This document shows positions 4,216 to 34,453 of a DNA stretch of 64,000 nucleotides, in pieces. The position numbers were made by a program, and so were the translations under genes. The notes below the pieces were generated by a model, which had not been told where the DNA came from, searched no databases, and was given only the letters and a program-made list of their open reading frames with translations. Within the stretch, counting starts at the first letter, position 1. The number at the start of each line of letters is the position of its first letter. The stretch comes from a virus (Duplodnaviria; Heunggongvirae; Uroviricota; Caudoviricetes), in the IMG/VR virus record IMGVR_UViG_3300021400_000025, positions 150,479 to 214,478 of that record; one strand, 5' to 3'.

Positions 4216-4976
4216 TTACATTCAAGTCAAGGGAAGGGAGACTTGGGGAGTTGATGCATCTCATATATGGGTTGTTCTACTTCTGCATACGGAACGATGT
4301 TCCATTGGAGGGCATTGTCATAGACAAGGACTATTCTGGAAAGGCGTATGATTCCGAGGAAAGGGACTATGTGATACGGGACAACTGGCCCATATTCTCC
4401 AACATACAGAGCAACATCATTGAGTGTGGGAATTTCCAGAAGTTCCTTGACGAAAACCATTTCCAGGAACTCTCCAATGGCTATGGCATATACCAGAAGC
4501 CAATCAAGGTGGATTTGGGGAAGAACCACATTCTGGCCGACTATTGGCATTTTCCATACAACAGAAAGCTGTTCCACGCCTTGTTCCGAGTCCCAAGATT
4601 GGTTGAGGCGTTGCGGGAAAGGAACATGGACATTGATTTCAACAACGCATGCTCATGCCACATCAGACGGGGAGACTTCAAGTTCATAGAGTCCAATCCA
4701 GAATTGTTGATGAAATACCATGACAAGAAGCCACCTACAGCGAAGATGGTTCAGGACAAGATGATAGAAGTGTGGATGAAGAATCCAAGCACCCAGATTC
4801 TGGTTTTCTCGGACGATATGGACTGGTGCAAGGAGAATCTTGCCACCAAGAAGGTTGTGTTCATGGAGGGCAACTTGCCATATGAGGACATCAACTTGAT
4901 AGGCATGTGCAAGGAGCATCTGTCGTTCAACTCCAGCTATTTCAACTATGTGGGCATGATGTTGGGAGGAGATTGA
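4212..4976 (+). CDS. Alpha-1,2-fucosyltransferase-like (GT11)
   Basis: GRLGE N-terminal motif, HIRRGD, VFSDDMDWC, NSSYF. ATGA overlap with the previous gene. Confidence 0.7.
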   Translation: MITFKSREGRLGELMHLIYGLFYFCIRNDVPLEGIVIDKDYSGKAYDSEERDYVIRDNWPIFSNIQSNIIECGNFQKFLDENHFQELSNGYGIYQKPIKVDLGKNHILADYWHFPYNRKLFHALFRVPRLVEALRERNMDIDFNNACSCHIRRGDFKFIESNPELLMKYHDKKPPTAKMVQDKMIEVWMKNPSTQILVFSDDMDWCKENLATKKVVFMEGNLPYEDINLIGMCKEHLSFNSSYFNYVGMMLGGD

Positions 4977-20638: not shown

Positions 20639-22117
20639 ATGGCGAAACAAGAGGAATTTCACAGAGAGGAACTGTCAAGCAAGACGCTGGAACTGATGTT
20701 GTTCAGGGAAATGATAACGAACCAGGACTTCCTCAGCAGGCTTTCTGGAGTCATGGACCTTAGATGGTTCAGAACGCCGCACATCAGGCTCATGGCGGAG
20801 TTCGCCATGCTGTTCTACAAGAAATATGGTGGCGTCCTCACAAGGGATCTGGTGGAATCCCTCATCCAGAAGCGCAATGACGCGCAGGCCATCGACGCGA
20901 ACAAAATCGACCTGAACGCCGCGCTGTACGATTTCAACAAGGCGAAGGAACTGGATTTGGGGCCGATGGACGAAGCCACGAAGATTTCCAAGATTCAGGC
21001 ATTCGTCAAGCAGGAAGCCATGAGGAACGCCCTTCTGGATTCAGCCACCGACCTTGAGAAGGCGAACACCGACGGAATCATTGAATCAACCTTGAAGAAG
21101 TTCGAGGACATCCAGAAGATTCTGTTCGAGAAGGTTGATCTTGGCGTTGAGATGTCAAAGGAAGAAGTTGATGGTTCAATGGAAGACCACATAGACTATC
21201 TCACCAATCCAGAGGCGAGGATTCCAACCTTGTGGAACTGCCTTGACGATTTGACGCATGGTGGGTTCTTGAAGGATGGCAAGTTCCTCGCTGTGTTCAT
21301 GGCCCAGGCTGGCCTTGGAAAGTCGAACATATTGGCGAACCTTGGCTACAACTTCCTCAAGCAGAACCTGAAGGTTGTTGTGATTTCAATGGAAATGTCC
21401 CAGAACGTCTACTTGCGCAGATTTGACTCGCTCATATCCAAAATCGACATCGACGAACTGGGTTTCTCCAGCATGACTTCGCAGTTGAAGGAGAAGGTCA
21501 GAAACTTCTACACGATTGACTGTCCAGGGGCCAAGTTGAATGTAAAGGAGTTCGCTCCCGGAAGCAAGTCGGCCAAGAACATAGAGGCATATGTGGAGAA
21601 ACTGGCCGAGGTGAAGGGGTGGAAGCCAGATGTCCTCATCATAGACTATCTGAATCTGATAAGACCAAACGCCATGAACGCGAAGGGGGATTCGTCCATG
21701 TACCAAGACGGCAAGGTTGTGTCGGAGGAACTCCGAGCCTTGTCATACAGGCTTGAAATCCCAATCATAACTGCAGTCCAGTGCAACTCAAGTGGATTCA
21801 ACACAGCCGACATTGGAATGCAGAACATCGCTGAATCCAGGGGCATAGCGCACACCGCCGACTTCATAGCTGGCCTTTACCAGACAGAGGAGGAGCAGGA
21901 CGATGGCGTTTTCCACATGAAGGTGTTGAAGTCAAGACTCGGGGACAAGAAGAACCTGAGGTTCGAGTTCGATAAGCACACTATGGAGTTCAGGGACATC
22001 AACGATGTTGGAGACAACAACGACATGGCAGTTGATTCATCCAAGTCAAGCATGGGATTGCCAAAGGCAACCGAGGACGATTTCAACCCATTTGGTGGAG
22101 ACTTGGGAATGCCTTGA
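20639..22117 (+). CDS. Replicative DNA helicase (DnaB/T4 gp41-like)
   Basis: Walker A AQAGLGKS, ISMEMS, IIDYLNL, ELRALS, TAVQ, IAESRGI, KSRLG. Confidence 0.9.
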   Translation: MAKQEEFHREELSSKTLELMLFREMITNQDFLSRLSGVMDLRWFRTPHIRLMAEFAMLFYKKYGGVLTRDLVESLIQKRNDAQAIDANKIDLNAALYDFNKAKELDLGPMDEATKISKIQAFVKQEAMRNALLDSATDLEKANTDGIIESTLKKFEDIQKILFEKVDLGVEMSKEEVDGSMEDHIDYLTNPEARIPTLWNCLDDLTHGGFLKDGKFLAVFMAQAGLGKSNILANLGYNFLKQNLKVVVISMEMSQNVYLRRFDSLISKIDIDELGFSSMTSQLKEKVRNFYTIDCPGAKLNVKEFAPGSKSAKNIEAYVEKLAEVKGWKPDVLIIDYLNLIRPNAMNAKGDSSMYQDGKVVSEELRALSYRLEIPIITAVQCNSSGFNTADIGMQNIAESRGIAHTADFIAGLYQTEEEQDDGVFHMKVLKSRLGDKKNLRFEFDKHTMEFRDINDVGDNNDMAVDSSKSSMGLPKATEDDFNPFGGDLGMP

Positions 22118-22203
22118 CGCCTCCGCCTGCATGAGTCTGGACGAAATGGACTTTCCTTGTCTCATCAGGCATGTCACAATCAAATTTGAAACTGATTTCA
22201 AAT

Positions 22204-24156
22204 TCAAGTGGGATTCCAATGGGCATAGAGCATGGCATCCCCAAACACATGCGCATTCTCCGTCACTGGCCGACCACCACGCTTGCGCGTGAACCATCCA
22301 TTGAAATCATATCCAGTTCGATCACTAAGTGGCAGTTTTCCAATTGGACTGTTCCATGACACAGACTTTTGGAGAGGATTTGCTGGATTCCCACCATTGG
22401 CGTCAAATGTCACTGTGCATTGCTGCGCAGGCGGATCGATGGATTGCGTCTCATCAGACTCGATGCATTCCCATATATACACCTCCTTGTATGGGGGCAT
22501 GTTGTCGTGCGGCAGAAACAACTTCTTCTGGTCGCATTCAAGGGGACTCATCTGGCAATCCACAGTTGCGCTCTTCAATGTATTCTTGTTCTTGTCATCA
22601 TCATCTGATGGGGTTTGGACGACCTTGGTGGATTCACCTCCAACCCCCACATCAACTGGTCTATCGAAGCTGATTTTGTCCCCTTTCTTCGCCAGATACG
22701 CATGCGTGTGGATTGGAATGTTGGATTCCCTCAAGCACACGAATTCCTCCCCCAGTTTCTTCCCCAAGGTGGGGTCATGGTCGGACACGCCTCGCAGGAA
22801 ATTCAGCACTCTTCTCCATTTCCTCCCACCATAGTTCCCAATCACCTTCAGCTCGGTGTCGTCCTTCGTGGAAATCACCACTCGCCCAACATATGAGGTG
22901 GGCTTGATTGATGACACCCAATCATATATGCTTTCAATCTTGCTGCGGATGGTCTCCATCTTGTCCATCATCTTGACATACCATGTCTGGAACTCAGAGA
23001 CAACCACCAAATCCTCGTCCAGTTTGTCCTTGAACATCTCCTGCATGGTCTTCCCCCCAATCTTCAACATGTCTGCGGTGTTGTCTGAGAAGATGTCGAA
23101 CAATGTCTGCAGGGATTGGCGATACAGTTCCGCGTCAGGTGATATGCGCAAAAGGCAATCGTGGATGGTCAAATCGTCTGTGTTGTACTTCTAAAGTCCA
23201 TTCACCATCTGCGATTCATATTGCGCTTCGACGATGGAGGTTGAACTGTTGATTGTGGCGCGCATGAACCTCATTGGCTCTGATTGGATGGATGTGCCGT
23301 CTGAAATGGTGGATGGGATTCCTCTTGGTCCGGTGGATTCCTTGTATTTGATGATGACATTCAGCGATGGGGGGATGTTGTTGTGCGTTTTCTTGGGGTT
23401 TCTCCAATCAAGGACATTCTCGCCATGCAATGGATATGTCAACTGCCCATCATCGAGATTGTTTGGCCGCGCCAGAAGATTGGATGTTGTCTGGACATTC
23501 CCATGCGAAACCAACTGCCCACTGCCCACAGTGAACACATCAACAAGATTTCCACCACCATGTATGGTTGAACAAGGCGTTGTTGGGGCTTCTGGTCTAG
23601 TGATGCGATGCTTGTGCTTCAATGGCATCTATAGGGTGGCTTCGTCCATTCCCATTGGAAGGTCATCTTCGGTTGTGTTCCCCAAGCACCAAATCAATCC
23701 ACATATGTTTTTGAAGTCCTGATACAGGTTGTTGGTGATGGTGGTGGAAATCTCAACTGCGCCATCGTAGTTCAACTTGGCTTCGTTCTTCAGGAACGCA
23801 ATCTGGGCATCCACGTTGTCTTCCAGCATCTTCAAGTCATTTTCCAACTTGCTCTTATATGCCGTGTAGGTTGTCCTTTTCACATAGTCCGTGAACTGGT
23901 TTTCATCGACATGGGCATCGTTCTTCCATTTCCCTGTGGAACAATCAACATTGAACCGACCATTCTAATCCACCAATCCCCCGAATATGGTTTTGCGCAT
24001 GTGCTTGAACAATTCGGTCTATGTCATTGCTGTATATCCAGTCTGATTCTCATCATCGGGGAACAGAAGAAAACAATCAGTCCCATTGTCCGAGATTGAG
24101 AGTTCATGGACCGATATTGGATTGATCCTCAGATATTCGCGCACGTCTATGTTCAT
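22204..24156 (-). CDS. Baseplate wedge/short tail fibre-like protein with C-terminal InlB-B (Listeria-Bacteroides) repeat, four in-frame TAG
   Basis: One frame from ATG 24156 through TAGs 24019, 23965, 23629 and 23191; HNNIPPSL, HTHAY, HDNMPPY tail-collar-like motifs; TVTFDANGG...GYDFNGWFT at the end. Confidence 0.6.
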
Positions 24157-24281
24157 GGTGGAAGTATTTACCATTATGCCGTTTTTTGCCGAAACTGGTA
24201 AATAATATCGCCTGAATAGGCAATGATGATGCCAACTTCGGGCACAAAACACAAACACACAACATACACACGAGGTGCATC

Positions 24282-24914
24282 ATGAAGAGAATCGGATTCG
24301 CATTGGCGTTTCTGTCTTCGATGTTGGCATTGAACGGCCAGATAGTTGACACCTACGCATTCAGAATGAACCTGAAGGTTCCCAGAATCTACAATAACTC
24401 ATAGTCTCTGGGATATCGAAGACTTCAGCCCCAACGATTGACGGGGAATCTGCAGTTCATATACAAGGATGATGGGCAGATTGAGATCAAGGTGCTTGAT
24501 CTTGTCAACAAGTCCCACAAGGTGAATGGAACTCCAATAACATACACTTGCTACGACATCCCCTACAGTGGTCATCAGACATTGGTTGTGGGGATAGGGA
24601 ACAACAAGACGGGTGTGTTCAGACAAGGTGGGGTTGAGTTTGCGTTCCAGGCTGACCCATCCTACAACATAGGGACATTGGACGAGGACAACACCCTCAT
24701 TCTGGAATTTTCGGGATATGGCTCGTTGCGTGGGGACGTGTTGAGGAACATGAGGGGTTCTGTGAAGGGGCAGATTGGATGTGGATGCATGGCCCATGGA
24801 CACATCTCCCCAACCCGCCTGTTTCTGGGATATCTCACTGACATAGTGCATGATGTCGCCCCTCTCTATGGGACATTCACCGCGACATTCAAGAGCAGAA
24901 GAATTGTGGATTGA
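24282..24914 (+). CDS. Secreted hypothetical protein, one in-frame TAG
   Basis: Signal peptide MKRIGFALAFLSSMLALNG; TAG 24402 in PRIYNNS*SLGYR; RBS GAGGTG. Confidence 0.65.
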
Positions 24915-24940
24915 TTGAAGTCTGTTTTGCATTGAAGCGA

Positions 24941-24979
24941 AAGCCAGTTCTCCTCCTTTGGTGGGATTGGCTTTTTTTG
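24941..24979 (+). terminator. Intrinsic terminator
   Basis: AAAGCCAGTT...GATTGGCTTT followed by a T run. Confidence 0.55.
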
Positions 24980-25010
24980 TATAATTGAGCATTGAAAGGT
25001 TCATATACAA

Positions 25011-26696
25011 ATGGATAACGAAAAATACTGCACAAGAATCAACGAAAAGACAGACGAGGTTCTTCTGGCAATCAAGAAGTCTGCCCAGAAGATATCAGAC
25101 ATAGTTTCACAGACTGCAGGTCCGTATGGCCACAATGTCATGCTCATCAATGGCAAGACATGCAGAATCACGAAAGACGGCATTTCTGTTCTGCGTTCAA
25201 TAACGGAGCCTGAGACCGAATCGGATTTCATCGCATTGAGCGTAATCAGGTCTGCATCCGACGAGACGAACAGGCTTGCTGGAGACGGAACCACCGCCAC
25301 ATGCATCCTTGCGAACGAAATCTTCCAGCAGGGGCATACATTCCTCACGGCAGGCATGAATGGCAATCTGCTCAGGAATGGAATAGTAAAGGCGTCTGAC
25401 CTTGCCCAGAAGATGGTTGTTGACAAGTTGTCAACGCCAGTGAAGGACGACAAGGACATCTACAACGTCGCCAAGATTTCCGCCAATGGCTCCGACGAGA
25501 TCGCCCAGATTCTCACAGATGTCTTCTCCAAGATTGGCAAGGACGGAATGGCGAGAGTTGAGCTGTCCAACACCGACAAGACAACCTCCAAGATTGTCTA
25601 TGGCATGACGATTGACCGTGGGCTTGAGTCCCCCTATTTCGCAACGAACGAGCATGGGGAGGCTGTGCTTGACAATCCCATAATCCTTCTTGTGAACAAG
25701 AGACTTTCGGTTGTTGGCGAACTGTTTGAGCCATTCAAGCTGCTTGCGAAGTTGAACCGACCAATCCTCGTTGTGGCAGAGGGATACGATCCAGACATCC
25801 TCAACACATTTGTCGTCAACAAGATCCGTGGTCTGCCAATCTGCGCAATCCTCGCCCCAAATTACGGCGAAGATCGCACGAATATGATGGAAGACCTAGC
25901 AATTGTGACTGGTGGAAAGGTAATTTCCCCCCAGACAGGACTCACCCTTGAATCCATTATAAGCGACCAGTCAATCCTTGGAACGGCGAAGCAAGTGATT
26001 GTGAATGGAGAGTCAACCTCAATCATAGCCGACACGTCCGTTATTGACAAGGAAAGGCTTGACAAGAGGATTGCTGAGATTGACCATGTGCTTGAGGACG
26101 AGACCCTGAACGAGCATGACAAGAGGATTGCCAAGACGAGAAAGGCAAGGCTTGTGTCTGGCATTGGCATCATATCTGTTGGTGGGGCGACAGAGGCCGA
26201 GATGCACGAAAAGAAGGATCTTGTGGATGATGCATTCGCTTCCGTGTCCAGTTCCCAGAAGAAGGGCATTGTTCCAGGCGCTGGCTTGACATATCTCGCA
26301 ATCCACAGCGCGTTGTACAAGTGGCTTTCCGAGCACTACAACGAGCTGACCCAGGAAGAGGCAAGTGGATTCAAGGTGTTCGCCGATTCTCTGACAAAGC
26401 CATTCCTCACCATATGCGGCAATTCTGGGAACCAGAACGCCCAGTATGCCCTTGGTGTTGTCCAGAACACGAACGAAGCCGAACACAAGAACGATGGAAA
26501 AATCTCCAACTGGACAAGATGCGTGGACTTTGGAACTGGGGAGATGATTGATGTGATTGAGAAGGGAATAGTGGATTCAGCCGCAGCGGTGATTGAGACC
26601 ATGAAGAATGGGGCCGCGGCAGGCGCGCAGCTTCTCTCCCTCAGTGGGGTTGTGAACACGCCATTGAAGCCTGTTCCACCCCCACCACAGATGTAA
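25011..26696 (+). CDS. groEL: Chaperonin GroEL-like
   Basis: TAGPYG, ITKDGISV, AGDGTTAT, ISANG, IDRGLESPYF, VGGATEAE, GIVPGAG, GIVDS. Confidence 0.92.
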   Translation: MDNEKYCTRINEKTDEVLLAIKKSAQKISDIVSQTAGPYGHNVMLINGKTCRITKDGISVLRSITEPETESDFIALSVIRSASDETNRLAGDGTTATCILANEIFQQGHTFLTAGMNGNLLRNGIVKASDLAQKMVVDKLSTPVKDDKDIYNVAKISANGSDEIAQILTDVFSKIGKDGMARVELSNTDKTTSKIVYGMTIDRGLESPYFATNEHGEAVLDNPIILLVNKRLSVVGELFEPFKLLAKLNRPILVVAEGYDPDILNTFVVNKIRGLPICAILAPNYGEDRTNMMEDLAIVTGGKVISPQTGLTLESIISDQSILGTAKQVIVNGESTSIIADTSVIDKERLDKRIAEIDHVLEDETLNEHDKRIAKTRKARLVSGIGIISVGGATEAEMHEKKDLVDDAFASVSSSQKKGIVPGAGLTYLAIHSALYKWLSEHYNELTQEEASGFKVFADSLTKPFLTICGNSGNQNAQYALGVVQNTNEAEHKNDGKISNWTRCVDFGTGEMIDVIEKGIVDSAAAVIETMKNGAAAGAQLLSLSGVVNTPLKPVPPPPQM

Positions 26697-26778
26697 TTCA
26701 AACGCCATTGTGAATTACCTCAAAAAAAAATGAACGGTTGCTCTTTACATGGGCAACCGTTTGTTGTATAATTGAATC

Positions 26779-26866
26779 GTTGCTTGTGGTGATGCGAAGG
26801 ATACTTCAACGAACAAATGAACTGAAAATTCAACAAACCCCTCCTTCGCAGATTTTCCCGAGCGAC
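26779..26866 (+). ncRNA. Candidate Y-RNA-like structured RNA, copy A (5' leader of the TROVE gene)
   Basis: 8-bp outer stem GTTGCTTG/CGAGCGAC, bulged T, GG/CC, inner stem TGCGAAGGA/TCCTTCGCA; begins just after TATAAT 26767-26772. Confidence 0.65.
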
Positions 26867-26891
26867 ATTTTACAGAAAGGATGACATAGAC

Positions 26892-28544
26892 ATGAGCAAG
26901 TTCAACGAGAAGAAGGCTGGCGCGCCAATGAAGAAGAACTTCATGGGCGAGGACGCATACGTGCTGCCTGACAAGGAAGCCTTGACCTCAATGGTCATGA
27001 CCACCTTCCTCACTGACGCATACTATGTCACTGAGAACCAGTTGACGCAGAACATCATTGAACTTGCCCAGAAGTGCGGCTCGGAGTTCACTGCAAAGCT
27101 GGCTCTCTATGCCAGAACCAAGGGGAATCTACGTTCGGTCAGCCATCTTCTTGCTGCCCTTGTATGCAAGGACTCCACGCATCCAACCTGGCTCAAGTCC
27201 TTCTACGAGCACATTGTGCTGCGTCCTGACGACATTTCGGAAATTCTGTCCTGCTATGGCAAGTTGAGGGGATTTGACCTCAAGCATATCAGGCAGATTC
27301 CAAACGCCATGAAGAGGGGATTTTCAACGGTCCTCTCCAATCTCTCCCCATACCAGATTGACAAGTACAAGATGAACGGCAGGACTGTGTCCTTGGTTGA
27401 CATCGTGAACCTCCTTCACCCAACGCCAACCGACAAGAACAGAGAGGCATACCGCAGGTTGATGCATGGGGAGTCCCTTGACGGAACATACGATGCGAAG
27501 ATTCTTGAGAAGGAAATGGCCGAGACTGGCAAGAACGCCAGCAACGAGCAGGAACTTGTCCTTGCAAAGCATGACGCAATCAAGTCTGTGCTTGAGAAGG
27601 GGATGCCAATCATGAACCTTCTCCGCAACCTTCGGAACATCATGCTCTACGCCCCAGACATGGTTGACGAGGCAATCAAGCAGCTCACGAACCACGACAA
27701 GATTGTGAACAGCAGGCTTCTGCCATTCAGGTTCATGTCGGCATACGATTCTGTGAACGAGGTTGAGATGTCTGACTACACTCCAGATGAAGATTCTGAA
27801 TCAAAGATAATGTTCGAGTCGGACATGCCAAGAATGGACGCGAACAGGCTTGCTTCAATCAAGACGAAGGTGATGAAGGCAATCGAGGACGCCATGACCA
27901 TTTCGTGCGAGAACGTCCCTGACCTTGAGGGCAATTGCGCAATCCTCATCGACCACTCTGGTTCCGTGCGTGGAGACTGGGGTGGAGATTCAAGGGTCTC
28001 TCCTTGGAGCAGCGTCCGCACTGCCCACATTGGAAACCTGTTTGGCTCCATCGTGGCGTTCAAGCAGAAGGATGTCTACATTGGCATGTTCGGCGACGAG
28101 CTCATTTCACCCAAGATTGACCGAAGCATGGGTCTTCTGAAGTTCAACAAGATGACCTACGATGAGGGAGACGATTGTGGAGGAGCGACAGAGAATGGGT
28201 TGTACACCTTCCTCAAGAATGTCATCAAGGAGAAGAAGCACATCGACAACCTCATCGTGTTCTCCGACATGGAGATTGGAGATGGTGGTGAGGGTGGATG
28301 GGACTACACGAGCAGATCGGGTGTCCATTTCAAGGACTTGTTCAAGGAGTTCAGGAAAATCAACCCCAACTGCCTTACGGTGTGCTGCAACATCAGGGGT
28401 CAGAGTGGGACGTCAGTGTTCAACCCCAACCTCAAGATTCTGAACGTCTCAGGGTGGTCGAACAACATCTTTGATGTGATATCCATGTACAAGGCTGGCA
28501 AGCTGAAGTCCATGGTTGAGGACATTGAAAAAATTAGCATTTGA
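26892..28544 (+). CDS. rsr: Ro60/TROVE-domain RNA-binding protein with C-terminal VWA domain
   Basis: KLALYART..NLRS.., KY......SLVD..NL.HP, LLRNLRNI, SRLLPFRF..AY, ILIDHSGS, IVFSDME. Confidence 0.9.
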   Translation: MSKFNEKKAGAPMKKNFMGEDAYVLPDKEALTSMVMTTFLTDAYYVTENQLTQNIIELAQKCGSEFTAKLALYARTKGNLRSVSHLLAALVCKDSTHPTWLKSFYEHIVLRPDDISEILSCYGKLRGFDLKHIRQIPNAMKRGFSTVLSNLSPYQIDKYKMNGRTVSLVDIVNLLHPTPTDKNREAYRRLMHGESLDGTYDAKILEKEMAETGKNASNEQELVLAKHDAIKSVLEKGMPIMNLLRNLRNIMLYAPDMVDEAIKQLTNHDKIVNSRLLPFRFMSAYDSVNEVEMSDYTPDEDSESKIMFESDMPRMDANRLASIKTKVMKAIEDAMTISCENVPDLEGNCAILIDHSGSVRGDWGGDSRVSPWSSVRTAHIGNLFGSIVAFKQKDVYIGMFGDELISPKIDRSMGLLKFNKMTYDEGDDCGGATENGLYTFLKNVIKEKKHIDNLIVFSDMEIGDGGEGGWDYTSRSGVHFKDLFKEFRKINPNCLTVCCNIRGQSGTSVFNPNLKILNVSGWSNNIFDVISMYKAGKLKSMVEDIEKISI

Positions 28545-28584
28545 CAGGCTTTACACGAAAATCAATTTGTTGTATAATTACTAT

Positions 28585-28667
28585 AGAGCCAGTGGTGAGT
28601 GGATTGTTACTTCTCAATCTGTTAAATTGAATTAAACTACCAATCCACAACTTTCCCTGGCTTTTTT
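28585..28667 (+). ncRNA. Candidate Y-RNA-like small RNA, copy B (own promoter and U-tail)
   Basis: Outer stem AGAGCCAG/CTGGCTTT, bulged T, GG/CC, inner stem GTGGATTG/CAATCCAC, then a T run; promoter at 28550-28578. Confidence 0.7.
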
Positions 28668-28688
28668 ACTTTAAGGGCATCAAATCAC

Positions 28689-29585
28689 ATGAAGTGGAGA
28701 TTGATAGAGGAAGCAAGAAAGACCCCATCTGACATGGAGTCCATCAATGATTCCTTCAACAAGGATGTATCTGACGAGAAGTTCGTCCCAACTGTAGATT
28801 TTGTCAAAGCTGTGTATAGAAGACTTAACCAGAAACTTTTCGGTGGCAGACTTCCATCAACAAATGAATTCAAAGTTGAAATTGTCAGCAGTAATGCGTT
28901 TAATGGAAATGTGACTGCACATGACATCAAAGGCACTGAAAATATCGCAGTTGTCAGTCTTCAGATGAATGGGACAAGTACATTGACAATCCATACCTGG
29001 ATGGAGACAATACTGCATGAAATGATTCACATTGACGATTTGGTGAATCACCCAGAACATTTTCATACAAAGGGATATAGAAGACACGGTAAATGGTTCA
29101 AGGAACAGGCAAGAAGGTTCAAGAAGGAGGGTTTTAACGTGACTGTGAAGTACGAAGGTGATTTTGGCACAAATACAGACGATGAACTTTATTCCAGGAA
29201 CAAAGAGGCAATATTCATCAAGATAAGCGAAAATCCAATTGGTCCCTCTGACATGATAAAGGTCAAAGTTGATGACAGAGACTGGGCATTGAAATGTCTA
29301 TATGTACATGGATATAGAAAGGTGAAGATTCTCCAAACCGACAATGAAAACTCTGGCAGGCTTGACTACAGTGAATATGATGGCGATTCTGGATTTAGCC
29401 CATATCATCTTACTGACAAATTCATAAGGGCATTTGGTCCATTCAACGAAGTTGAAGACATTGACTTGTCAAGTATAGTTGCTGAAAGCGAAGGTGGTTT
29501 TCTTCCAAGCGACACATTGGAGATAAATGAACCTGGATTCAAGCAATATATCAGAAATGGCGTTCGTTATTATGAAGTTTCCTGA
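28689..29585 (+). CDS. SprT-like zinc metalloprotease domain protein
   Basis: YRRLNQKLFGGRLP, ILHEMIH (HExxH), HGKWFK. Confidence 0.75.
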   Translation: MKWRLIEEARKTPSDMESINDSFNKDVSDEKFVPTVDFVKAVYRRLNQKLFGGRLPSTNEFKVEIVSSNAFNGNVTAHDIKGTENIAVVSLQMNGTSTLTIHTWMETILHEMIHIDDLVNHPEHFHTKGYRRHGKWFKEQARRFKKEGFNVTVKYEGDFGTNTDDELYSRNKEAIFIKISENPIGPSDMIKVKVDDRDWALKCLYVHGYRKVKILQTDNENSGRLDYSEYDGDSGFSPYHLTDKFIRAFGPFNEVEDIDLSSIVAESEGGFLPSDTLEINEPGFKQYIRNGVRYYEVS

Positions 29586-30454
29586 TGAAATTTGACCTGA
29601 CAATAGGCAATCCTCCATACACCTCTGGCATGGACATTGACGTGCATAAGGCGTTCTCTGGAATTTCCAAGAAAATCGTTTTTGTCCACCCTTCAACTTT
29701 CCTAATTTCCCACAAGCGCAATTCCTTCAATAAGCAGATGAAAAGGATTGACATGAGGAAACTGGAATCAGCGCATCTATTATGGGGCAATGCCATGTTC
29801 AACATCCAACTGTACGTGCCAATTGTTGTTTCTACTTGGAACGCAGAGAAAACAGATGAAATTGTCCATGTGGTTGATGATGCCTATAACCACTGCGAAT
29901 ATGATGTTGACTATGACAAGGTTCACCATTATGGCAAGGACTATCCAAGGTTTTTGGAATGGTTGAACAATAATGTCATGCCACTTGTGGAGAAGAATGG
30001 TTCTGTTGGAGGACATGGGACGTATGAAGTGACAGAGCAGTTTGGATTCAAGATGTCCACCATGCGTGGGCATCCACCTCTTGACGATGGGGATTCCGCT
30101 TTGAGGGACGATTTCTACACCATCTTGCCACAGTCCGACAAGGTTGTGCGCGAAAACTTCTGCAAGTTGGGGGATTATGATTCAAACTACAAGCGCATGT
30201 TCTCCTTCAAGACAGAAGATGAGCGCGAGAATTTCCTTTGGTACTTGAAGACCAAATGCGTCAGGTTCAACCTCTCCATATTCAAGTTCTCCAACATGCT
30301 GATGAGAGGGGAAATGACCCAGATTCCCTGGATGGACTTCAAAACTCGATATTCCGACGCTGATTTGAGGAAATTGTGGAATATAGATGACGATTTGTGG
30401 GATATAATCAACAAGAAGATACCTGATTATTATGTAGATTACACATATAATTGA
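29585..30454 (+). CDS. Adenine DNA methyltransferase, catalytic motif IV/target-recognition half (Eco57I-like)
   Basis: Starts directly with FDLTIGNPPY; no SAM-binding motif I; ends IPWMDF..YSDADL...WNI. Confidence 0.7.
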   Translation: MKFDLTIGNPPYTSGMDIDVHKAFSGISKKIVFVHPSTFLISHKRNSFNKQMKRIDMRKLESAHLLWGNAMFNIQLYVPIVVSTWNAEKTDEIVHVVDDAYNHCEYDVDYDKVHHYGKDYPRFLEWLNNNVMPLVEKNGSVGGHGTYEVTEQFGFKMSTMRGHPPLDDGDSALRDDFYTILPQSDKVVRENFCKLGDYDSNYKRMFSFKTEDERENFLWYLKTKCVRFNLSIFKFSNMLMRGEMTQIPWMDFKTRYSDADLRKLWNIDDDLWDIINKKIPDYYVDYTYN

Positions 30455-30479
30455 AACAAAGAACTAAAAAGAAAGGAAA

Positions 30480-30656
30480 ATGAACATGACCAATACATTC
30501 AAAACTGGCGATACTATCCTTCTCAAGGATACTAATGCGAAATATACTATCTGGAATGAAGACGACTTTTGGTATTGCCTCAAATCCGTGGATTCTGATT
30601 CCGCAATTCGCATCCCCAAGAAGGGTGCTGCAGAAAAGTGGGTCAAGGTTGCTTGA
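30480..30656 (+). CDS. Small hypothetical protein
   Basis: RBS GAAAGGA; FKTGDTILLK. Confidence 0.5.
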   Translation: MNMTNTFKTGDTILLKDTNAKYTIWNEDDFWYCLKSVDSDSAIRIPKKGAAEKWVKVA

Positions 30657-30860
30657 CCCCATGCGTTTCATAGAATCAATATGGGTGCTACTTGAGACAA
30701 TGTGTTTCAGTAGCACCTAAAACATAAAGAAAACAGGCAACCAAAATTATTCCGATTATTTTTACGGAACCCCCTTGCGTTCGGAACAATAATGTGGTAT
30801 ACTGTTGGGGTTCTTTGGGAGAAGAAGGATGCCCGCGAGTTCCTTCAAGAAAAATGAACT

Positions 30861-31631
30861 ATGTTGAGCGAGCAAGAAAAGTCTGACTACAGAGAAATCG
30901 TCATGAAGCACATGACCAAGATGGCCGAAAGTTTTAGCGATCTAAATCCTAAAAATTCCTTTTATACTCTTTTTCCATCCCGAGCAGTAGAATTTGGGCG
31001 TTCATTTGATAGCAAGTTGGGACATACAATGGAAGGGATAATCGTTGATATATGCAAACGCAATTTCTGCAACGTTTCTCGTAAGGTCAAGGGTTTCTTG
31101 TATTCTGAACAGAGCGACCACATCGGTCACTTGCTGTCCATGTATGAAGACAAGGAGACAAGGAAAACTCCTGAAATTTCAGATTACTTGGGATTTCAGG
31201 TGTCAAGTTCTTCGGGGAAGATGAGGAAAGAGTTATGCGATATAGTCATGCAAGATGGCAACAAGCACTACTTAGTTGAAGTGAAACTTGGTGGTGATAT
31301 GGATGTCAAGAAAGCACAGGGGGAGAAACGCCATTTGCTTGAGTTGTATTACATGATGTTCAACAGTTGCACCAAGAATGACGAAATTAAGATTTTGGTT
31401 GGTACTGTGTACAATTGCTGTGGCGAAGGAAACGATTTCAACCAGAAACGTGTGCTTCAATATTTCAACAGAAATGAGCTATTGATTGGAACCGAGTTTT
31501 GGAGTTTCATCGCAAGGAGTGAAGAAGGTGGGAAGTTCATTTGGGATGAATTCGTCAAGTGCTGCCCCATGGTCAACACTGCGTATGAGAAGAACAAGGA
31601 ACGAGTGCAGAAAGAACTTAATCTAGTATAA
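30861..31631 (+). CDS. Putative type II restriction endonuclease (PD-(D/E)xK)
   Basis: SFDSKLG..ME, CDIVM...LVEVKLGGDMD; directly upstream of an adenine methylase. Confidence 0.65.
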   Translation: MLSEQEKSDYREIVMKHMTKMAESFSDLNPKNSFYTLFPSRAVEFGRSFDSKLGHTMEGIIVDICKRNFCNVSRKVKGFLYSEQSDHIGHLLSMYEDKETRKTPEISDYLGFQVSSSSGKMRKELCDIVMQDGNKHYLVEVKLGGDMDVKKAQGEKRHLLELYYMMFNSCTKNDEIKILVGTVYNCCGEGNDFNQKRVLQYFNRNELLIGTEFWSFIARSEEGGKFIWDEFVKCCPMVNTAYEKNKERVQKELNLV

Positions 31632-31638
31632 TTAAAAT

Positions 31639-32754
31639 ATGAAATCCAAGCAATTAAAAACTTATGGTCTTAAGCCATTGATAAAGTATCCGGGGGGCAA
31701 GGAAAAAGAACTTCCACTGATATTTGAAAACCTTCCCACATCGTTTCAAGACTATTATGAGCCTTTTGTTGGGGGTGGTTCCGTCCACATGGCGATGTCC
31801 GCCACCCATCATTTCATAAACGATAAGTCAAAGGACTTGATTGATTTTTATCGGGCGTTGAAAAACCAAGATACCCGGGTTCTATTTGACATCGAAAACA
31901 TTAACTCCTCGTGGAAAAACTTGAACCAGTTCATGAACGAGCACAGGGACGAACTTGTTGACATCTACAAGTCGGGAACAGAAAAAAACTTAAATGTGCT
32001 TGACTTCATAGAGAAGAACTATCCTGCCATCAAATTAATATTCAATGGCTTGACTGTTAATGATGGTCTGTTCAAGCGTGAGTTGGTTCGTTGCGTTCCA
32101 TCCAAGTTCAATAGGATGAGGAACATCAGCACAAAGAATGGCGCACTTCCTGAGTCTGATATTTTCCCTAACTTAACAACGGCGTTCATTTCTTCGCTAT
32201 ATTCGTACTACAGAAGTCTATACAACACCAAAGACCCCTCCGTGGTTCCATGCAGAGTGGCGTTATATGTATTTCTCAGGTACTATGCCTACAGTGGGAT
32301 GTTCAGGTTCAACCCAAGGGGGGAGTTCAACGTCCCATATGGCGGGATGGGGTATAACAAGAACTTTCTGGACTCCAAGATTGCTTATTGGAAGTCTCCG
32401 GAGTTGATTGAGCATTTTGAGAAAACCACCATTGAAGCCATGGACTTCCGAGATTTCATAAATGCGCATCCACCAACAAGTGATGATTTCATGTTCCTTG
32501 ATCCACCATATGATTCTGAATTCAGTACTTACGATGGAAATGAATTTGGGAAAGCGGAGCAGTGCGCCCTTGCGAATTACCTTCTGGACGATTGTCCATG
32601 TAAGTGGATGATGGTGATAAAAAACACGGACTTCATCAGAAATCTATATGATGGGCATGGACTTTCCATAAAGGCGTTTGACAAGAAATATTCGGTGAGC
32701 TTCATGAACAGAAACAACAAAAATGTGACGCATCTTATCATCATGAACTATTGA
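31639..32754 (+). CDS. D12-class N6-adenine DNA methyltransferase (Dam-like)
   Basis: KYPGGK, YEPFVGGGSV, IND, RFNPRGEFNVPYG, FLDPPY. Confidence 0.88.
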   Translation: MKSKQLKTYGLKPLIKYPGGKEKELPLIFENLPTSFQDYYEPFVGGGSVHMAMSATHHFINDKSKDLIDFYRALKNQDTRVLFDIENINSSWKNLNQFMNEHRDELVDIYKSGTEKNLNVLDFIEKNYPAIKLIFNGLTVNDGLFKRELVRCVPSKFNRMRNISTKNGALPESDIFPNLTTAFISSLYSYYRSLYNTKDPSVVPCRVALYVFLRYYAYSGMFRFNPRGEFNVPYGGMGYNKNFLDSKIAYWKSPELIEHFEKTTIEAMDFRDFINAHPPTSDDFMFLDPPYDSEFSTYDGNEFGKAEQCALANYLLDDCPCKWMMVIKNTDFIRNLYDGHGLSIKAFDKKYSVSFMNRNNKNVTHLIIMNY

Positions 32755-33377
32755 CAATGAGCATTGAAACATCAGAGTCAAGGTTCAAGGAAGTTACAGG
32801 TCTGACCCATCTTGACTTGTCAGTTCCCCATTTCAGTAAAGGCGACAATCAACAGCAGAAAACGACAAAGCAGCAATTTCGCGATTTTGGCTGGGTATGT
32901 ACGCCCCTCTGGTTGGTTGACGAAATGCTTGAACCTCAGATTTCAAACTTGACATTGACATCCACCACATGCGATGCTTGTGCCGGTTGTGGACAGTTCT
33001 CCATACGCCTGATGAGGAAGATGTACAACAAGCTTCGGGAAATGGGTGCGTCTGAGGACAAGGCAAATATCTGGATTCAGAAAGTCTGGCTTCCCAAACT
33101 ACACTACTTCACTGAATTCCAGTTTTCCAACGTGGCGAAACTCGTTTACATTTTTGGTCCGAACATCAACGTCTATGCCGGAGATTCACTGAACATGAAG
33201 TACGCGAAGGATGAAGACAAGGGCCTGCTCTTTTTCAACGAAAAGTTGAAATCATGGCTGAACATCCCTGACCTCCAACCCGAAGTTGAAAAACGGAAGG
33301 ACGACCTTGACGCGCTTGTGACTCTGTTCAAAGTGCTTGAAACCAACTGGAACCTCATCAACCACATGAAGAACTGA
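32751..33377 (+). CDS. Adenine DNA methyltransferase, SAM-binding half
   Basis: FGWVCTPLWLVDEML, DACAGCGQF (motif I), NVYAGDSL; no NPPY. Confidence 0.65.
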   Translation: MTMSIETSESRFKEVTGLTHLDLSVPHFSKGDNQQQKTTKQQFRDFGWVCTPLWLVDEMLEPQISNLTLTSTTCDACAGCGQFSIRLMRKMYNKLREMGASEDKANIWIQKVWLPKLHYFTEFQFSNVAKLVYIFGPNINVYAGDSLNMKYAKDEDKGLLFFNEKLKSWLNIPDLQPEVEKRKDDLDALVTLFKVLETNWNLINHMKN

Positions 33378-33414
33378 TTTTACAATCAATCATGCAGGTG
33401 GTATAATTTACTGT

Positions 33415-33603
33415 ATGAAATGGAAACTTGTAAATGAATCAAAAACTCCGGCAGATGATGATTCAATAAATTCCACCTTAAATGGGGATGTATCAAAGGG
33501 AACAGACGACTATGACGAGGAAGTTGATGTTATTAGACATCAGAGAGGTGTCATCAAGGCAGAGCGAGTTGGAAAAAACGCCATTAGAATCGTAGTATCT
33601 TAA
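33415..33603 (+). CDS. Short paralog of the N-terminus of the 28689 gene
   Basis: MKWKLVNESKTPADDDSINSTLNGDVS versus MKWRLIEEARKTPSDMESINDSFNKDVS. Confidence 0.55.
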   Translation: MKWKLVNESKTPADDDSINSTLNGDVSKGTDDYDEEVDVIRHQRGVIKAERVGKNAIRIVVS

Positions 33604-33625
33604 TTGAAAGGAAACGCAAACAGAA

Positions 33626-34453
33626 ATGGAACCCGACTATTCAACCTACAGACTGCAGCTCAAGTCCTTGAAGCCGGACCTTGACGAGAAGCAGATCTAC
33701 CAGATGTACAATGGCGTGATGAAGCCTGGGCGCAGCACACAGACAACGCCCTATCTTGCCGAGGATGGCTACTACCACGGACTCTACCTTACGGAGTGCC
33801 TTGACGATGGCCGAATCTACGTTGGGAAGCACAGCACAATGGATCTTGACGATGGGTATCAAGGTTCTGGCTATGAAATCAACGATGGGAAGAACCTTGG
33901 GAAGAAGTTCAAGACGACATGGCTTGAGTTCTTTGATTCGTCTGACCAGGCATATGTCGCCGAGAAGGGGATTGTGAACGCGAACTTCATCCGAAACCAG
34001 AAGCTGGTGATGAACCATGTCCTTGGTGGGAAGCATCTTGATGATGCGAAGCATCTTGATGATTCAAAGCATGATGCGAAGCATCTGGACGATGTGAAGA
34101 AGCATCTGGACGAGAAAAAGCCAGAAGTTGTGAAAACTGAATCCAGCAAGAAGGTTGAGCCATTCAAGACCCCAAATCCGGACAGGATTGAGGTGAAGGG
34201 CAGAAAGAAGAGGGGAAGCACATTCTCGGACCTTGGGGTGAAGGTTGGAGACTGGATTTCGTTCATTGAGGACGAGAGCAAGAAGTTCAAGGTTGTTGAC
34301 GATTGGCATGTTGACGACCACAATGGCCGAACCTTGATGCTCAAGCAGGTTCTACCGGCCTTGACGAAGAGGTTCTATGGCAATCCCCTTTCCGCGTTCA
34401 CGTTCAATGGGAAATGCCTTGCCGCAATCCAGAAGGAACTTCGCAGCAATTGA
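33626..34453 (+). CDS. GIY-YIG (Seg-like) endonuclease-like protein
   Basis: GLYLTECLDDGRIYVGKHST...DGYQGSG...AYVAE...MN. Confidence 0.7.
   Translation: MEPDYSTYRLQLKSLKPDLDEKQIYQMYNGVMKPGRSTQTTPYLAEDGYYHGLYLTECLDDGRIYVGKHSTMDLDDGYQGSGYEINDGKNLGKKFKTTWLEFFDSSDQAYVAEKGIVNANFIRNQKLVMNHVLGGKHLDDAKHLDDSKHDAKHLDDVKKHLDEKKPEVVKTESSKKVEPFKTPNPDRIEVKGRKKRGSTFSDLGVKVGDWISFIEDESKKFKVVDDWHVDDHNGRTLMLKQVLPALTKRFYGNPLSAFTFNGKCLAAIQKELRSN

What the first reader, a model, noticed from the sequence alone, without database searches (positions are those of the whole stretch)
26744..28667. Ro60/TROVE gene bracketed by two separately promoted RNAs with the same bulged-helix motif: candidate phage Ro60-Y RNA system
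Seen: copy A (26779-26866) and copy B (28585-28667) each start just after a TTTACA-N17-TATAAT promoter. Their architecture is the same: 8-bp outer stem closing in G-C, a 5'-strand GTGGTGA with the first T bulged, a 3'-strand (G/A)A(T/C)TTTCCC, an 8-9-bp inner stem, and a 34-40-nt variable loop. The stem sequences differ completely yet keep pairing, so only the internal motif is conserved. Known: Ro60/Rsr binds a bulged helix near the joined ends of Y RNAs; bacterial Y RNAs lie next to rsr. Inference: these are a divergent Y RNA class, lacking the tRNA-like YrlA domain by eye, forming a phage RNP for RNA quality control, repair or anti-defence.
Basis: partly seen in the sequence, partly recalled or inferred. 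Interest (0 to 1): 0.85.

Follow-up and report, generated by a model that had tools for sequence, protein, structure and literature searches.

The report
Phage Ro60 gene with two Y-RNAs
A 418-kb gut/rumen phage carries a Ro60-type RNA-binding protein gene flanked by two small structured RNAs from a widespread Y-RNA-like family of phages and gut bacteria that is absent from Rfam, so this is a stripped-down variant of a known protein-RNA partnership, not a new kind of system.

Summary
Copies A (26779-26866) and B (28585-28667) each start 7 nt after a TTTACA-N17-TATAAT promoter and fold as described. The shared motif occurs only at these two places in the 418-kb genome.

Both copies are kept in four related ~415-435-kb phages, with compensatory stem changes. 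A covariance model built from them finds the same RNA "handle" on the gene's strand beside TROVE genes in most of 80 phage contigs, in Bacteroides phage crAss001, and in Lachnospiraceae and Paenibacillus loci. There the handle often carries a permuted (YrlA-like) or an intact tRNA-like body.

The window's RNAs are therefore short, body-less (YrlB-like) members of a YrlA-related Y RNA family.

It aligns with the known bacterial CGAA/GNCGAA motif, so which module contacts Ro60 is open.

A is also the 5' leader of the Ro60 mRNA. B is a stand-alone gene.

Ro60 binding, discrete transcripts and function are untested.

Phage Ro60 with Y RNAs is already published (Chen 2014; Thermus phage phiLo 2025). 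This scan has also met the same handle repeatedly on other DNA.

Verdict: new variant of a known kind, moderate interest.

The parts
26733..26761 (+). Inverted repeat (9-bp arms) after the cpn60 stop, flanked by an A-run and a U-rich tail. It looks like the terminator of the upstream gene, and the -35 box of promoter A lies in its loop.
   Evidence: Read from the sequence. Equivalent repeats surround the -35 in L006, L007 and L009.
26744..26772 (+). Promoter A, TTTACA-N17-TATAAT. It belongs to a phage-wide promoter class, TTTACA-N11-TTGTTGTATAAT.
   Evidence: 11 of 12 consensus positions. The class occurs 10 times in the window against 0.05 expected. It is conserved before copy A in 5 of 5 related phages.
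26779..26866 (+). Y-like RNA copy A. Outer stem 26779-26786 with 26859-26866. Bulged U at 26787. GG 26788-89 pairs with CC 26857-58. U26790 faces U26856. G26791 wobble-pairs with U26855 and A26792 pairs with U26854. 3-nt 3' bulge at 26851-53. Inner stem 26793-26801 with 26842-26850. UACUUC at 26802-26807. Displaced CGAA at 26810-26813. 40-nt loop.
   Evidence: Fold. Alignment and RNAalifold. R1 score 84.9 bits. Covariation.
26875..26881 (+). Shine-Dalgarno GAAAGGA of the TROVE gene, 9 nt after copy A. No promoter lies between them, so A is the 5' leader of the Ro60 mRNA.
   Evidence: Sequence. Same layout in 5 of 5 relatives.
26892..28544 (+). Ro60/TROVE-vWA protein gene, 550 aa, with a complete MIDAS motif (D354, S356, S358, T433, D459).
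   Evidence: Pfam TROVE E 2.9e-20. phrog_850, annotated RNA-binding protein, E 1.6e-33. AlphaFold2 model pLDDT 74. Foldseek top 13 matches are all Ro60 structures: 9KOP, 9L5Y, 1YVP, 2I91, 2NVO, 9NEN. Invariant residues in alignment A3.
28550..28578 (+). Promoter B, same class as A. It starts 6 nt after the TROVE stop codon.
   Evidence: 11 of 12 consensus positions. Conserved in 4 of 5 relatives; absent in L008.
28585..28667 (+). Y-like RNA copy B. Outer stem 28585-28592 with 28657-28664. Bulged U at 28593. GGUGA at 28594-28598. Inner stem 28599-28606 with 28641-28648. UACUUC at 28608-28613. 3' motif AACUUUCCC at 28649-28657. U6 run at 28662-28667. The loop holds a small covarying hairpin with loop sequence CUGUUAA.
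   Evidence: Fold. R1 score 89.5 bits. Weak full-length match to Rfam Y_RNA, 18.5 bits, E 1.6. In L006-L009, B is followed within 15-25 nt by a hairpin and a new promoter, so it is a stand-alone gene there.

Best explanation
A and B are the phage's Y RNAs, the small non-coding partners of its Ro60 protein. They are short, body-less (YrlB-like) members of a large YrlA-related family.

All members share a two-part handle. The lower part is a terminal stem with a bulged U, two G-C pairs, a U-U mismatch, a G-U wobble and an A-U pair, followed by a 3-nt bulge on the 3' strand. The upper part is an inner stem capped by single-stranded UACUUC(GAA).

Proposed mechanism, by analogy with characterised Y RNAs. 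The handle docks on the outer surface of the Ro60 ring. The loop then gates access to the central cavity, tethers Ro60 to a host factor such as PNPase, or both. No phage RNase PH-domain exonuclease (PNPase type) or RtcB was found, so any such effector would be host-encoded.

B is made as a free RNA from its own promoter. A is the first 88 nt of the Ro60 mRNA. It is either cut out or terminated to give a second Y RNA, or it lets Ro60 bind its own leader 9 nt from the ribosome-binding site.

Shown here: sequence, fold, covariation, promoters, linkage to TROVE genes, and kinship with YrlA-type RNAs. Inferred: transcripts of discrete size, Ro60 binding, the contact site and the function.
For: 1. 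Structure under selection. In the five related phages, 12 of 20 pairs show compensatory changes. With distant members, 96% of cells are paired, 17-18 of 20 pairs have double changes, and 0 of 500 shuffles reach the covariation score. Slid controls give about 50% pairing.

2. Unpaired positions are invariant across 51 RNAs: bulged U 50/51, mismatch U 51/51, and loop U-A-C..C 51/51.

3. Linkage to TROVE. Only two copies exist in the 418-kb genome, and both flank the gene. In 76 related phage loci, all 97 R1 hits with E below 0.1 lie on the gene's strand, nearly all within about 520 nt upstream. An independent regex finds 182 hits upstream in 67 of 80 loci, against 1 hit on the opposite strand in 527 kb. 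Hits also lie beside TROVE in Lachnospiraceae, Prevotella and Paenibacillus loci and just downstream of crAss001 gp96.

4. Kinship with known Y RNAs. Relatives carry the same handle around a T-arm plus D-arm mimic that matches Rfam YrlA. UACUUCGA aligns to the 5' GNCGAA motif of YrlA (motif from PMC4201824). B gives a weak full-length Y_RNA match.

5. Transcription signals. Both stems begin 7 nt after a conserved -10 box. The other eight promoters of the same class lead to short ordinary leaders.

6. The protein has the Ro60 fold with an intact MIDAS motif.

7. Precedent. Thermus phage phiLo Ro60 binds two adjacent Y-like RNAs in EMSA and forms complexes with host PNPase (PMC12135203). Y RNAs are modular, with a terminal stem that binds Ro60 and a loop that binds an effector (10.1101/312249).
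Against: There are no data on discrete transcripts or on binding for this phage.

Neither RNA reaches any Rfam threshold. A has no Rfam hit at all, and B scores 18.5 bits against a cut-off of 38.

The published Ro60-contact motifs are not present as such. Animal Y RNAs have GGUCCGA and bacterial ones have GNCGAAN0-1G. Here B has lost CGAA and A has it displaced by 3 nt.

A has no terminator and no separate promoter for the gene, so it may never exist as a free RNA.

About 10 of 80 related TROVE loci show no copy within 2.5 kb.

The promoter before B is missing in L008.
Confidence: 0.8

Rival explanations
1. Copy A is mainly a cis-acting leader. Ro60 binds the handle 9 nt upstream of its own ribosome-binding site and represses or attenuates its own synthesis. 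Only B is a free Y RNA, which would also titrate the protein. This partly overlaps with the best explanation.
For: In 5 of 5 related phages A lies between the only promoter and the TROVE start, with no terminator or second promoter. The Shine-Dalgarno sequence follows 9-35 nt after the stem. The upstream gene ends in a terminator-like hairpin that encloses the -35 of promoter A, so the gene depends on that promoter.
Against: In more distant loci the RNAs are separated from TROVE by a terminator hairpin (L071) or an ORF (L016-L018, L144), or they lie downstream of the gene (crAss001). A leader position is therefore not a family trait. The Shine-Dalgarno sequence is not sequestered in the fold. 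A keeps every handle feature of the free-standing copies.
Confidence: 0.3
2. The RNAs act with a partner other than Ro60, such as a host tRNA-handling enzyme or nuclease, and sit beside TROVE only because the genes are co-regulated or co-inherited.
For: Binding is untested.
Against: Linkage to TROVE holds across very different phages and bacteria, on the same strand, despite changes of position, copy number and RNA body. The only invariant parts are the handle motifs, which is what a shared protein partner predicts. In phiLo the adjacent RNAs do bind Ro60.
Confidence: 0.1
3. The hairpins are ordinary transcript-end elements with no RNA-level function of their own. They could be 5' stabilising stem-loops, attenuators or terminators of this promoter class, or decaying remnants of YrlA genes.
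For: B ends in a U6 run like an intrinsic terminator, and A and B have pyrimidine-rich tails. Both have lost the tRNA-like body found in relatives.
Against: The other eight promoters of the same class in the window carry no such stems. Bulged and loop nucleotides are invariant while the stems covary, which is not expected of terminators or relics. A-type and B-type copies have each been kept since before the five phages diverged. A promoter sits between the TROVE stop and B.
Confidence: 0.05

Closest known systems
Bacterial and phage YrlA / YrlB Y RNAs bound by Rsr (Ro60): Salmonella Typhimurium, Mycobacterium smegmatis, 254 bacteria and 22 phages (Chen et al. 2014, PMC4201824; Rfam RF02553)
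   Same: They are encoded within 2 kb of the Ro60 gene, often in more than one copy. The 5' and 3' ends pair into a long stem, and a conserved CGAA-type motif lies near the 5' side. Relatives of the window's RNAs carry the permuted T-arm/D-arm tRNA mimic and match RF02553 below threshold. Short hairpin-type second Y RNAs (YrlB, Yrn2) are also known.
   Different: A and B have no tRNA-like domain and no Rfam match to YrlA. The handle has an extra lower module (bulged U, GG, U-U, G-U, A-U) that lies outside the RF02553 alignment. The motif reads UACUUC(GAA) rather than GNCGAA, and in B the GAA is lost.
Thermus phage phiLo Ro60 with Yrl1 and Yrl2 (NAR 2025, PMC12135203; PDB 9KOP, 9L5Y)
   Same: It is a phage-encoded Ro60 with two adjacent short Y-like RNAs that have no tRNA body. 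Binding was shown by EMSA, the effector is host PNPase, and the phage has no PNPase of its own. phiLo Ro60 is the best structural match to the window's protein. No RNase PH-domain (PNPase-type) gene was found in the window's phage either.
   Different: In phiLo both published RNAs lie upstream of the gene and were picked by their CGAA motif. Here one RNA lies on each side and the CGAA is degenerate. Protein identity is only about 19%. Model R1 gives only weak hits in phiLo, and they lie downstream of the gene.
Metazoan Y RNAs (Rfam RF00019) bound by Ro60
   Same: They are about 85-110 nt long, with paired termini. A single pyrimidine is bulged on the 5' strand and is followed a few positions on by a G-U and an A-U pair. 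The lower stem is separated from an upper stem by an internal loop, there is a large loop, and the 3' tail is U-rich. B aligns end to end with RF00019.
   Different: The score is far below threshold (18.5 against 38 bits) and A does not match. The 5'-strand motif is GUGGUGA, not GGUCCGA. Transcription is from bacterial-type promoters, not by Pol III.
TROVE genes of jumbo phages and crAss-like phages (Iyer et al. 2021, PMC7824862; crAss001 gp96, PMC8375218)
   Same: TROVE proteins are already noted in a subset of jumbo phages as an RNA-repair platform with a tRNA-like partner. In crAss001 the TROVE protein is an early gene.
   Different: Those papers describe no partner RNA for these phages. 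Here partner RNAs are located, including two unannotated copies downstream of crAss001 gp96.

Membership tests
Y RNA in the functional sense (non-coding RNA bound by Ro60) | Physical association with Ro60 | not testable with these tools
   No binding or co-purification data exist for this phage. The only support is genomic linkage and precedent in phiLo.
Y RNA in the functional sense (non-coding RNA bound by Ro60) | Encoded next to a Ro60/TROVE gene | tested here: met
   A ends 25 nt before the TROVE start and B begins 41 nt after its stop. These are the only two copies in 418 kb.
Y RNA in the functional sense (non-coding RNA bound by Ro60) | About 80-130 nt, with 5' and 3' ends paired in a long stem interrupted by a bulge or internal loop, plus a large loop | tested here: met
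   Folds and covariation. The stem starts at the predicted transcription start site.
Y RNA in the functional sense (non-coding RNA bound by Ro60) | Accumulates as a discrete small transcript | tested here: inconclusive
   Contigs from a metatranscriptome of the same sample cover parts of cpn60 and TROVE only, at depth about 3. Short RNAs would not be expected in such contigs.
YrlA (Rfam RF02553) | tRNA-like effector domain (T-arm, D-arm) | tested here: not met
   ARAGORN finds no tRNA-like gene in the window. A and B have no RF02553 hit even at E up to 10. The own-genome RF02553 hits lie elsewhere and are weak or partial. Relatives L011, L021, L049, L051, L071 and L085 do have the domain.
YrlA (Rfam RF02553) | Score at or above the Rfam gathering threshold (69 bits) | tested here: not met
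   Even the tRNA-bearing relatives reach only 29-45 bits.
Bacterial Y RNAs (YrlA/YrlB/Yrn1) | GNCGAAN0-1G / CGAA motif near the 5' side of the stem | tested here: inconclusive
   The family consensus is UACUU-CGAA, and it aligns to the YrlA motif. In A the CGAA is displaced by 3 nt (26810-26813). In B it is absent.
Metazoan Y RNA (Rfam RF00019) | Bulged helix with 5'-strand GGUCCGA; score at or above 38 bits | tested here: not met
   B scores 18.5 bits (E 1.6) and A has no hit. The motif here is GUGGUGA.
Ro60 / Rsr protein | TROVE HEAT-repeat ring plus a vWA domain with a MIDAS motif | tested here: met
   Pfam TROVE. Full-length Foldseek matches to Ro60 structures, TM 0.5-0.7. The DxSxS...T...D residues are invariant in A3.

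The most novel reading that the evidence does not exclude
The two-part handle (a bulged-U helix plus UACUUC(GAA)) defines a large superfamily of Ro60 partner RNAs in phages and gut bacteria that no paper found here describes. Its cargo is interchangeable: none, a permuted tRNA mimic, or an intact tRNA. The lower bulged-U module, absent from the Rfam YrlA model, would be a second protein-contact site. In this phage, copy A would additionally serve as an autoregulatory leader of the Ro60 mRNA. The particle would be an early-expressed device that redirects host RNA decay or counters host nucleases that attack tRNA or rRNA.
Probability: 0.25. Interest if true: 0.7.

Novelty: new variant of a known kind. 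Interest (0 to 1): 0.5.

Why it matters
Ro60-Y RNA particles are well studied in animals and in a few bacteria, but what they do for phages is unclear. This locus is a minimal case: one Ro60 gene and two short RNAs that are little more than the conserved handle. That makes it a clean system for finding out which RNA features the phage-type Ro60 recognises.

The comparative work also shows that the same handle sits beside TROVE genes in most related gut-phage contigs. In cultured crAss001 it lies in an unannotated gap, and in one GenBank record its tRNA-like bodies are annotated as tRNA genes. A dedicated RNA family model would therefore correct annotations. It would also make published crAss001 infection RNA-seq directly usable to test expression.

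The leader position of copy A offers a simple test of whether a Ro60 protein regulates its own mRNA through a Y-RNA-like element.

Tried and rejected
1. Rfam at gathering thresholds over the whole window gave no hits. At E up to 10, only a weak Y_RNA match for B appeared, along with chance snoRNA-type matches.

2. Expression. A metatranscriptome run from the same sample (X2) held 14% of the sampled words. Laid on 22000-34000, it gave five low-depth contigs on cpn60 and TROVE (25087-28353). It gave nothing on A, B or the other 8.7 kb. Contigs cannot show small RNAs, and DNA carry-over cannot be excluded. This says nothing either way about A and B.

3. Additional copies or a tRNA-bearing YrlA elsewhere in the genome: none found. 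The extra regex hits lack the fold and lie inside genes.

4. Partner enzymes in the phage genome: no RtcB and no RNase PH-domain (PNPase-type) gene. Neighbouring genes are a DnaB helicase, cpn60, a SprT-like protein, a restriction-modification pair and a GIY-YIG protein, none of them RNA-repair genes.

5. The idea that the stems are a generic feature of the promoter class is rejected. The other eight promoters lack them.

6. DNA-level similarity to named phages: only a 69% match of part of the TROVE gene to crAss-like phage cr111_1.

7. The review PMC10870794 is not held, so it could not be read.

8. Literature search for crAss-like phages together with Ro60 gave no papers.
Full report
**What is there**

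The window is part of a complete 418,068-bp virus record with direct terminal repeats. Earlier notes of this scan describe it as a rumen phage that reads TAG as an amino acid.

The ORF 26892-28544 encodes a 550-aa protein. It matches Pfam TROVE at E 2.9e-20 and phrog_850, annotated RNA-binding protein. An AlphaFold2 model built from 13 homologues has mean pLDDT 74. Its 13 best Foldseek matches are all Ro60 structures over the full length: Thermus phage phiLo, Xenopus, Deinococcus and human. The MIDAS residues of the vWA domain are invariant among homologues. It is the only TROVE gene in the genome.

Both promoters match 11 of 12 consensus positions. Each predicted RNA stem begins 7 nt after its -10 box.

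The energies lie 3.6-3.7 standard deviations below those of shuffled sequences.

The combined motif occurs twice in the window against 0.19 expected. A covariance model built from the copies (R1) finds only these two sites in the whole genome.

The promoters belong to a class, TTTACA-N11-TTGTTGTATAAT, that occurs ten times in the window against 0.05 expected. The other eight members lead straight into ordinary short leaders and start codons. The stems are therefore not a property of the promoter class.

**Comparative evidence**

Four phage contigs with 82-85% identical TROVE proteins keep both copies in the same places. Two of these contigs are 414 and 434 kb long.

Alignment of the ten RNAs shows that the stems differ while still pairing. 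Twelve of 20 pairs show compensatory changes, some within the A lineage and some within the B lineage.

(A/U)UACUUC at the 5' edge of the loop is invariant in all ten.

R1 then finds the same element in more distant loci, with about 50% protein identity. All hits lie on the TROVE strand.

A second search with a protein alignment gave 194 viral relatives, of which 80 were kept. In 76 of these, all 97 R1 hits with E below 0.1 lie on the gene's strand. Nearly all lie within about 520 nt upstream, with up to three per locus.

A simple two-motif regex, independent of the model, gives:
- 182 hits upstream in 67 of 80 loci;
- 11 hits elsewhere on the same strand;
- 1 hit on the opposite strand in 527 kb.

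Over 51 RNAs (46 distinct), 96% of cells pair and 18 of 20 pairs show double changes. No shuffle out of 500 reaches the covariation score, and slid controls pair at about 50%.

Several unpaired positions are invariant across these RNAs: the bulged U, the mismatch U and the loop letters U-A-C..C. In most sequences these loop letters are followed by G-A-A.

**Link to known Y RNAs**

In several relatives the same handle encloses a T-arm, a closed acceptor-like hairpin and a D-arm. This is the permuted tRNA mimic of YrlA. These RNAs match Rfam RF02553 at 29-35 bits, below the 69-bit cut-off but with E from 3e-4 to 1e-2.

In that alignment, UACUUCGA lies on the 5' GNCGAA motif of YrlA. Chen et al. 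proposed that motif as the Rsr contact (PMC4201824).

Other copies enclose a tRNA in normal order, which Rfam scores as tRNA. Others, like A and B, enclose only a loop. Locus L071 shows all three types in a row behind a Bacteroidota-type promoter.

The handle also lies upstream of TROVE in Lachnospiraceae, Prevotella and Paenibacillus contigs. In Paenibacillus the region matches YrlA below threshold.

In cultured Bacteroides phage crAss001, two tandem copies lie just downstream of the TROVE gene gp96, in an unannotated gap. That gene is reported as early (PMC8375218).

A and B are thus short, YrlB-like members of a YrlA-related family. The tRNA-like body is absent and the CGAA is degenerate. 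It is displaced by 3 nt in A and lost in B.

**Transcription units**

Promoter A is conserved in 5 of 5 related phages. In all five, A is followed by the Shine-Dalgarno sequence and the TROVE start, with no other promoter.

The upstream cpn60 gene ends in a terminator-like inverted repeat whose loop holds the -35 of promoter A. A is therefore the 5' leader of the Ro60 mRNA.

Promoter B is conserved in 4 of 5. In the four relatives, B is followed within 15-25 nt by a hairpin and a fresh promoter, so it is a stand-alone RNA gene there. In the window, B ends in a U6 run 22 nt before the next gene.

**How it most likely works**

Characterised Y RNAs are modular. The terminal stem binds Ro60, mainly through its 5' strand. 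The loop binds an effector or blocks the cavity (10.1101/312249).

Thermus phage phiLo Ro60 binds two adjacent short Y-like RNAs and forms complexes with host PNPase, and that phage has no PNPase of its own (PMC12135203). The window's genome also shows no RNase PH-domain (PNPase-type) gene and no RtcB.

I therefore read A and B as Ro60-docking RNAs whose loops gate the protein or tether it to a host factor. Confidence that they are Ro60 partner RNAs is about 0.8. The mechanism itself is inference.

Which handle module touches Ro60 is open. The lower bulged helix resembles the animal site. The UACUUC(GAA) element is the homologue of the bacterial motif.

A may in addition let Ro60 control its own mRNA (about 0.3, not exclusive of the main reading).

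**Novelty**

Ro60 next to Y RNAs in phages has been published (Chen 2014; phiLo 2025). TROVE genes in jumbo and crAss-like phages have also been noted.

I found no paper that links crAss-like phages with Ro60. Rfam does not detect these RNAs at threshold.

Earlier agents of this scan reported the same handle beside Ro60-like genes on other DNA many times. My results agree with theirs but were obtained independently, from this window.

For this window the finding is a new variant of a known kind. It is well supported as a sequence family and untested biochemically.

Noticed in passing
L145 36597-36778, minus strand (MH675552, about 96,596-96,777): Bacteroides phage crAss001 has two tandem handle-type RNAs (R1 27.7 and 24.9 bits) directly downstream of its TROVE gene gp96. 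They lie in a ~900-nt stretch with no annotation. Published infection RNA-seq could test whether they are expressed.
   Followed up: partly
L143 1144-1262 and 1291-1408 (OR575929, phage csAssE-Sib): The GenBank features tRNA-Tyr and tRNA-Lys just upstream of the 'Ro sixty-related protein' lie inside Y-type handles (AUGGUGA...UUACUUCGA...UUUUCC). They are probably cargo of Y RNAs rather than ordinary tRNA genes.
   Followed up: partly
L071 2020-2430: A crAss-like contig carries three Y-type RNAs in a row before TROVE. The first has a permuted tRNA mimic, the second no body, and the third a normal-order tRNA (Rfam tRNA 53 bits) with a mismatched acceptor stem. A terminator hairpin follows. 54 of 80 loci have three copies.
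   Followed up: partly
L146 3012-3085 and 3201-3292 (Thermus phage phiLo, MH673673): Weak R1 hits (12 and 17 bits) with GUACUUC and AACUUUCC lie downstream of the phiLo Ro60 gene. They overlap the small annotated CDS phiLo_25. The published Yrl1 and Yrl2 lie upstream, where a UUUACUUCGG also occurs near L146 1306.
   Followed up: no
window 13576-63201 (ten sites): A phage-wide promoter class, TTTACA-N11-T(T/G)G(T/G)TGTATAAT, occurs ten times. At 26733-26761 and in relatives, the -35 box sits in the loop of a terminator-like inverted repeat, a compact terminator-promoter unit.
   Followed up: partly
window 30861-32754: A TdeIII-type restriction endonuclease gene (30861-31631) is followed directly by a D12-class adenine methyltransferase gene (31639-32754). 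This is a phage-borne restriction-modification pair 2 kb downstream of the Ro60 locus.
   Followed up: no
window 25011-26696: A Cpn60/GroEL-type chaperonin gene lies directly upstream of the Ro60 unit. In a metatranscriptome of the same sample, the only contigs on a 12-kb stretch fell on this gene and on TROVE.
   Followed up: no
L111 1862-1992 and 2320-2451: A Bacteroidales MAG contig has, upstream of its TROVE gene, two full-length tRNA matches, each with a 73-74-nt insertion in the anticodon arm. They could be intron-bearing tRNAs or another kind of Y RNA cargo.
   Followed up: no
L011 and L013, about 4620-4790; L015-L018, about 4650-4850: Long, structured-looking non-coding stretches follow the TROVE stop in these loci. 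One has a ~9-bp closing stem and a U-run. R1 does not detect them and they were not examined further.
   Followed up: no
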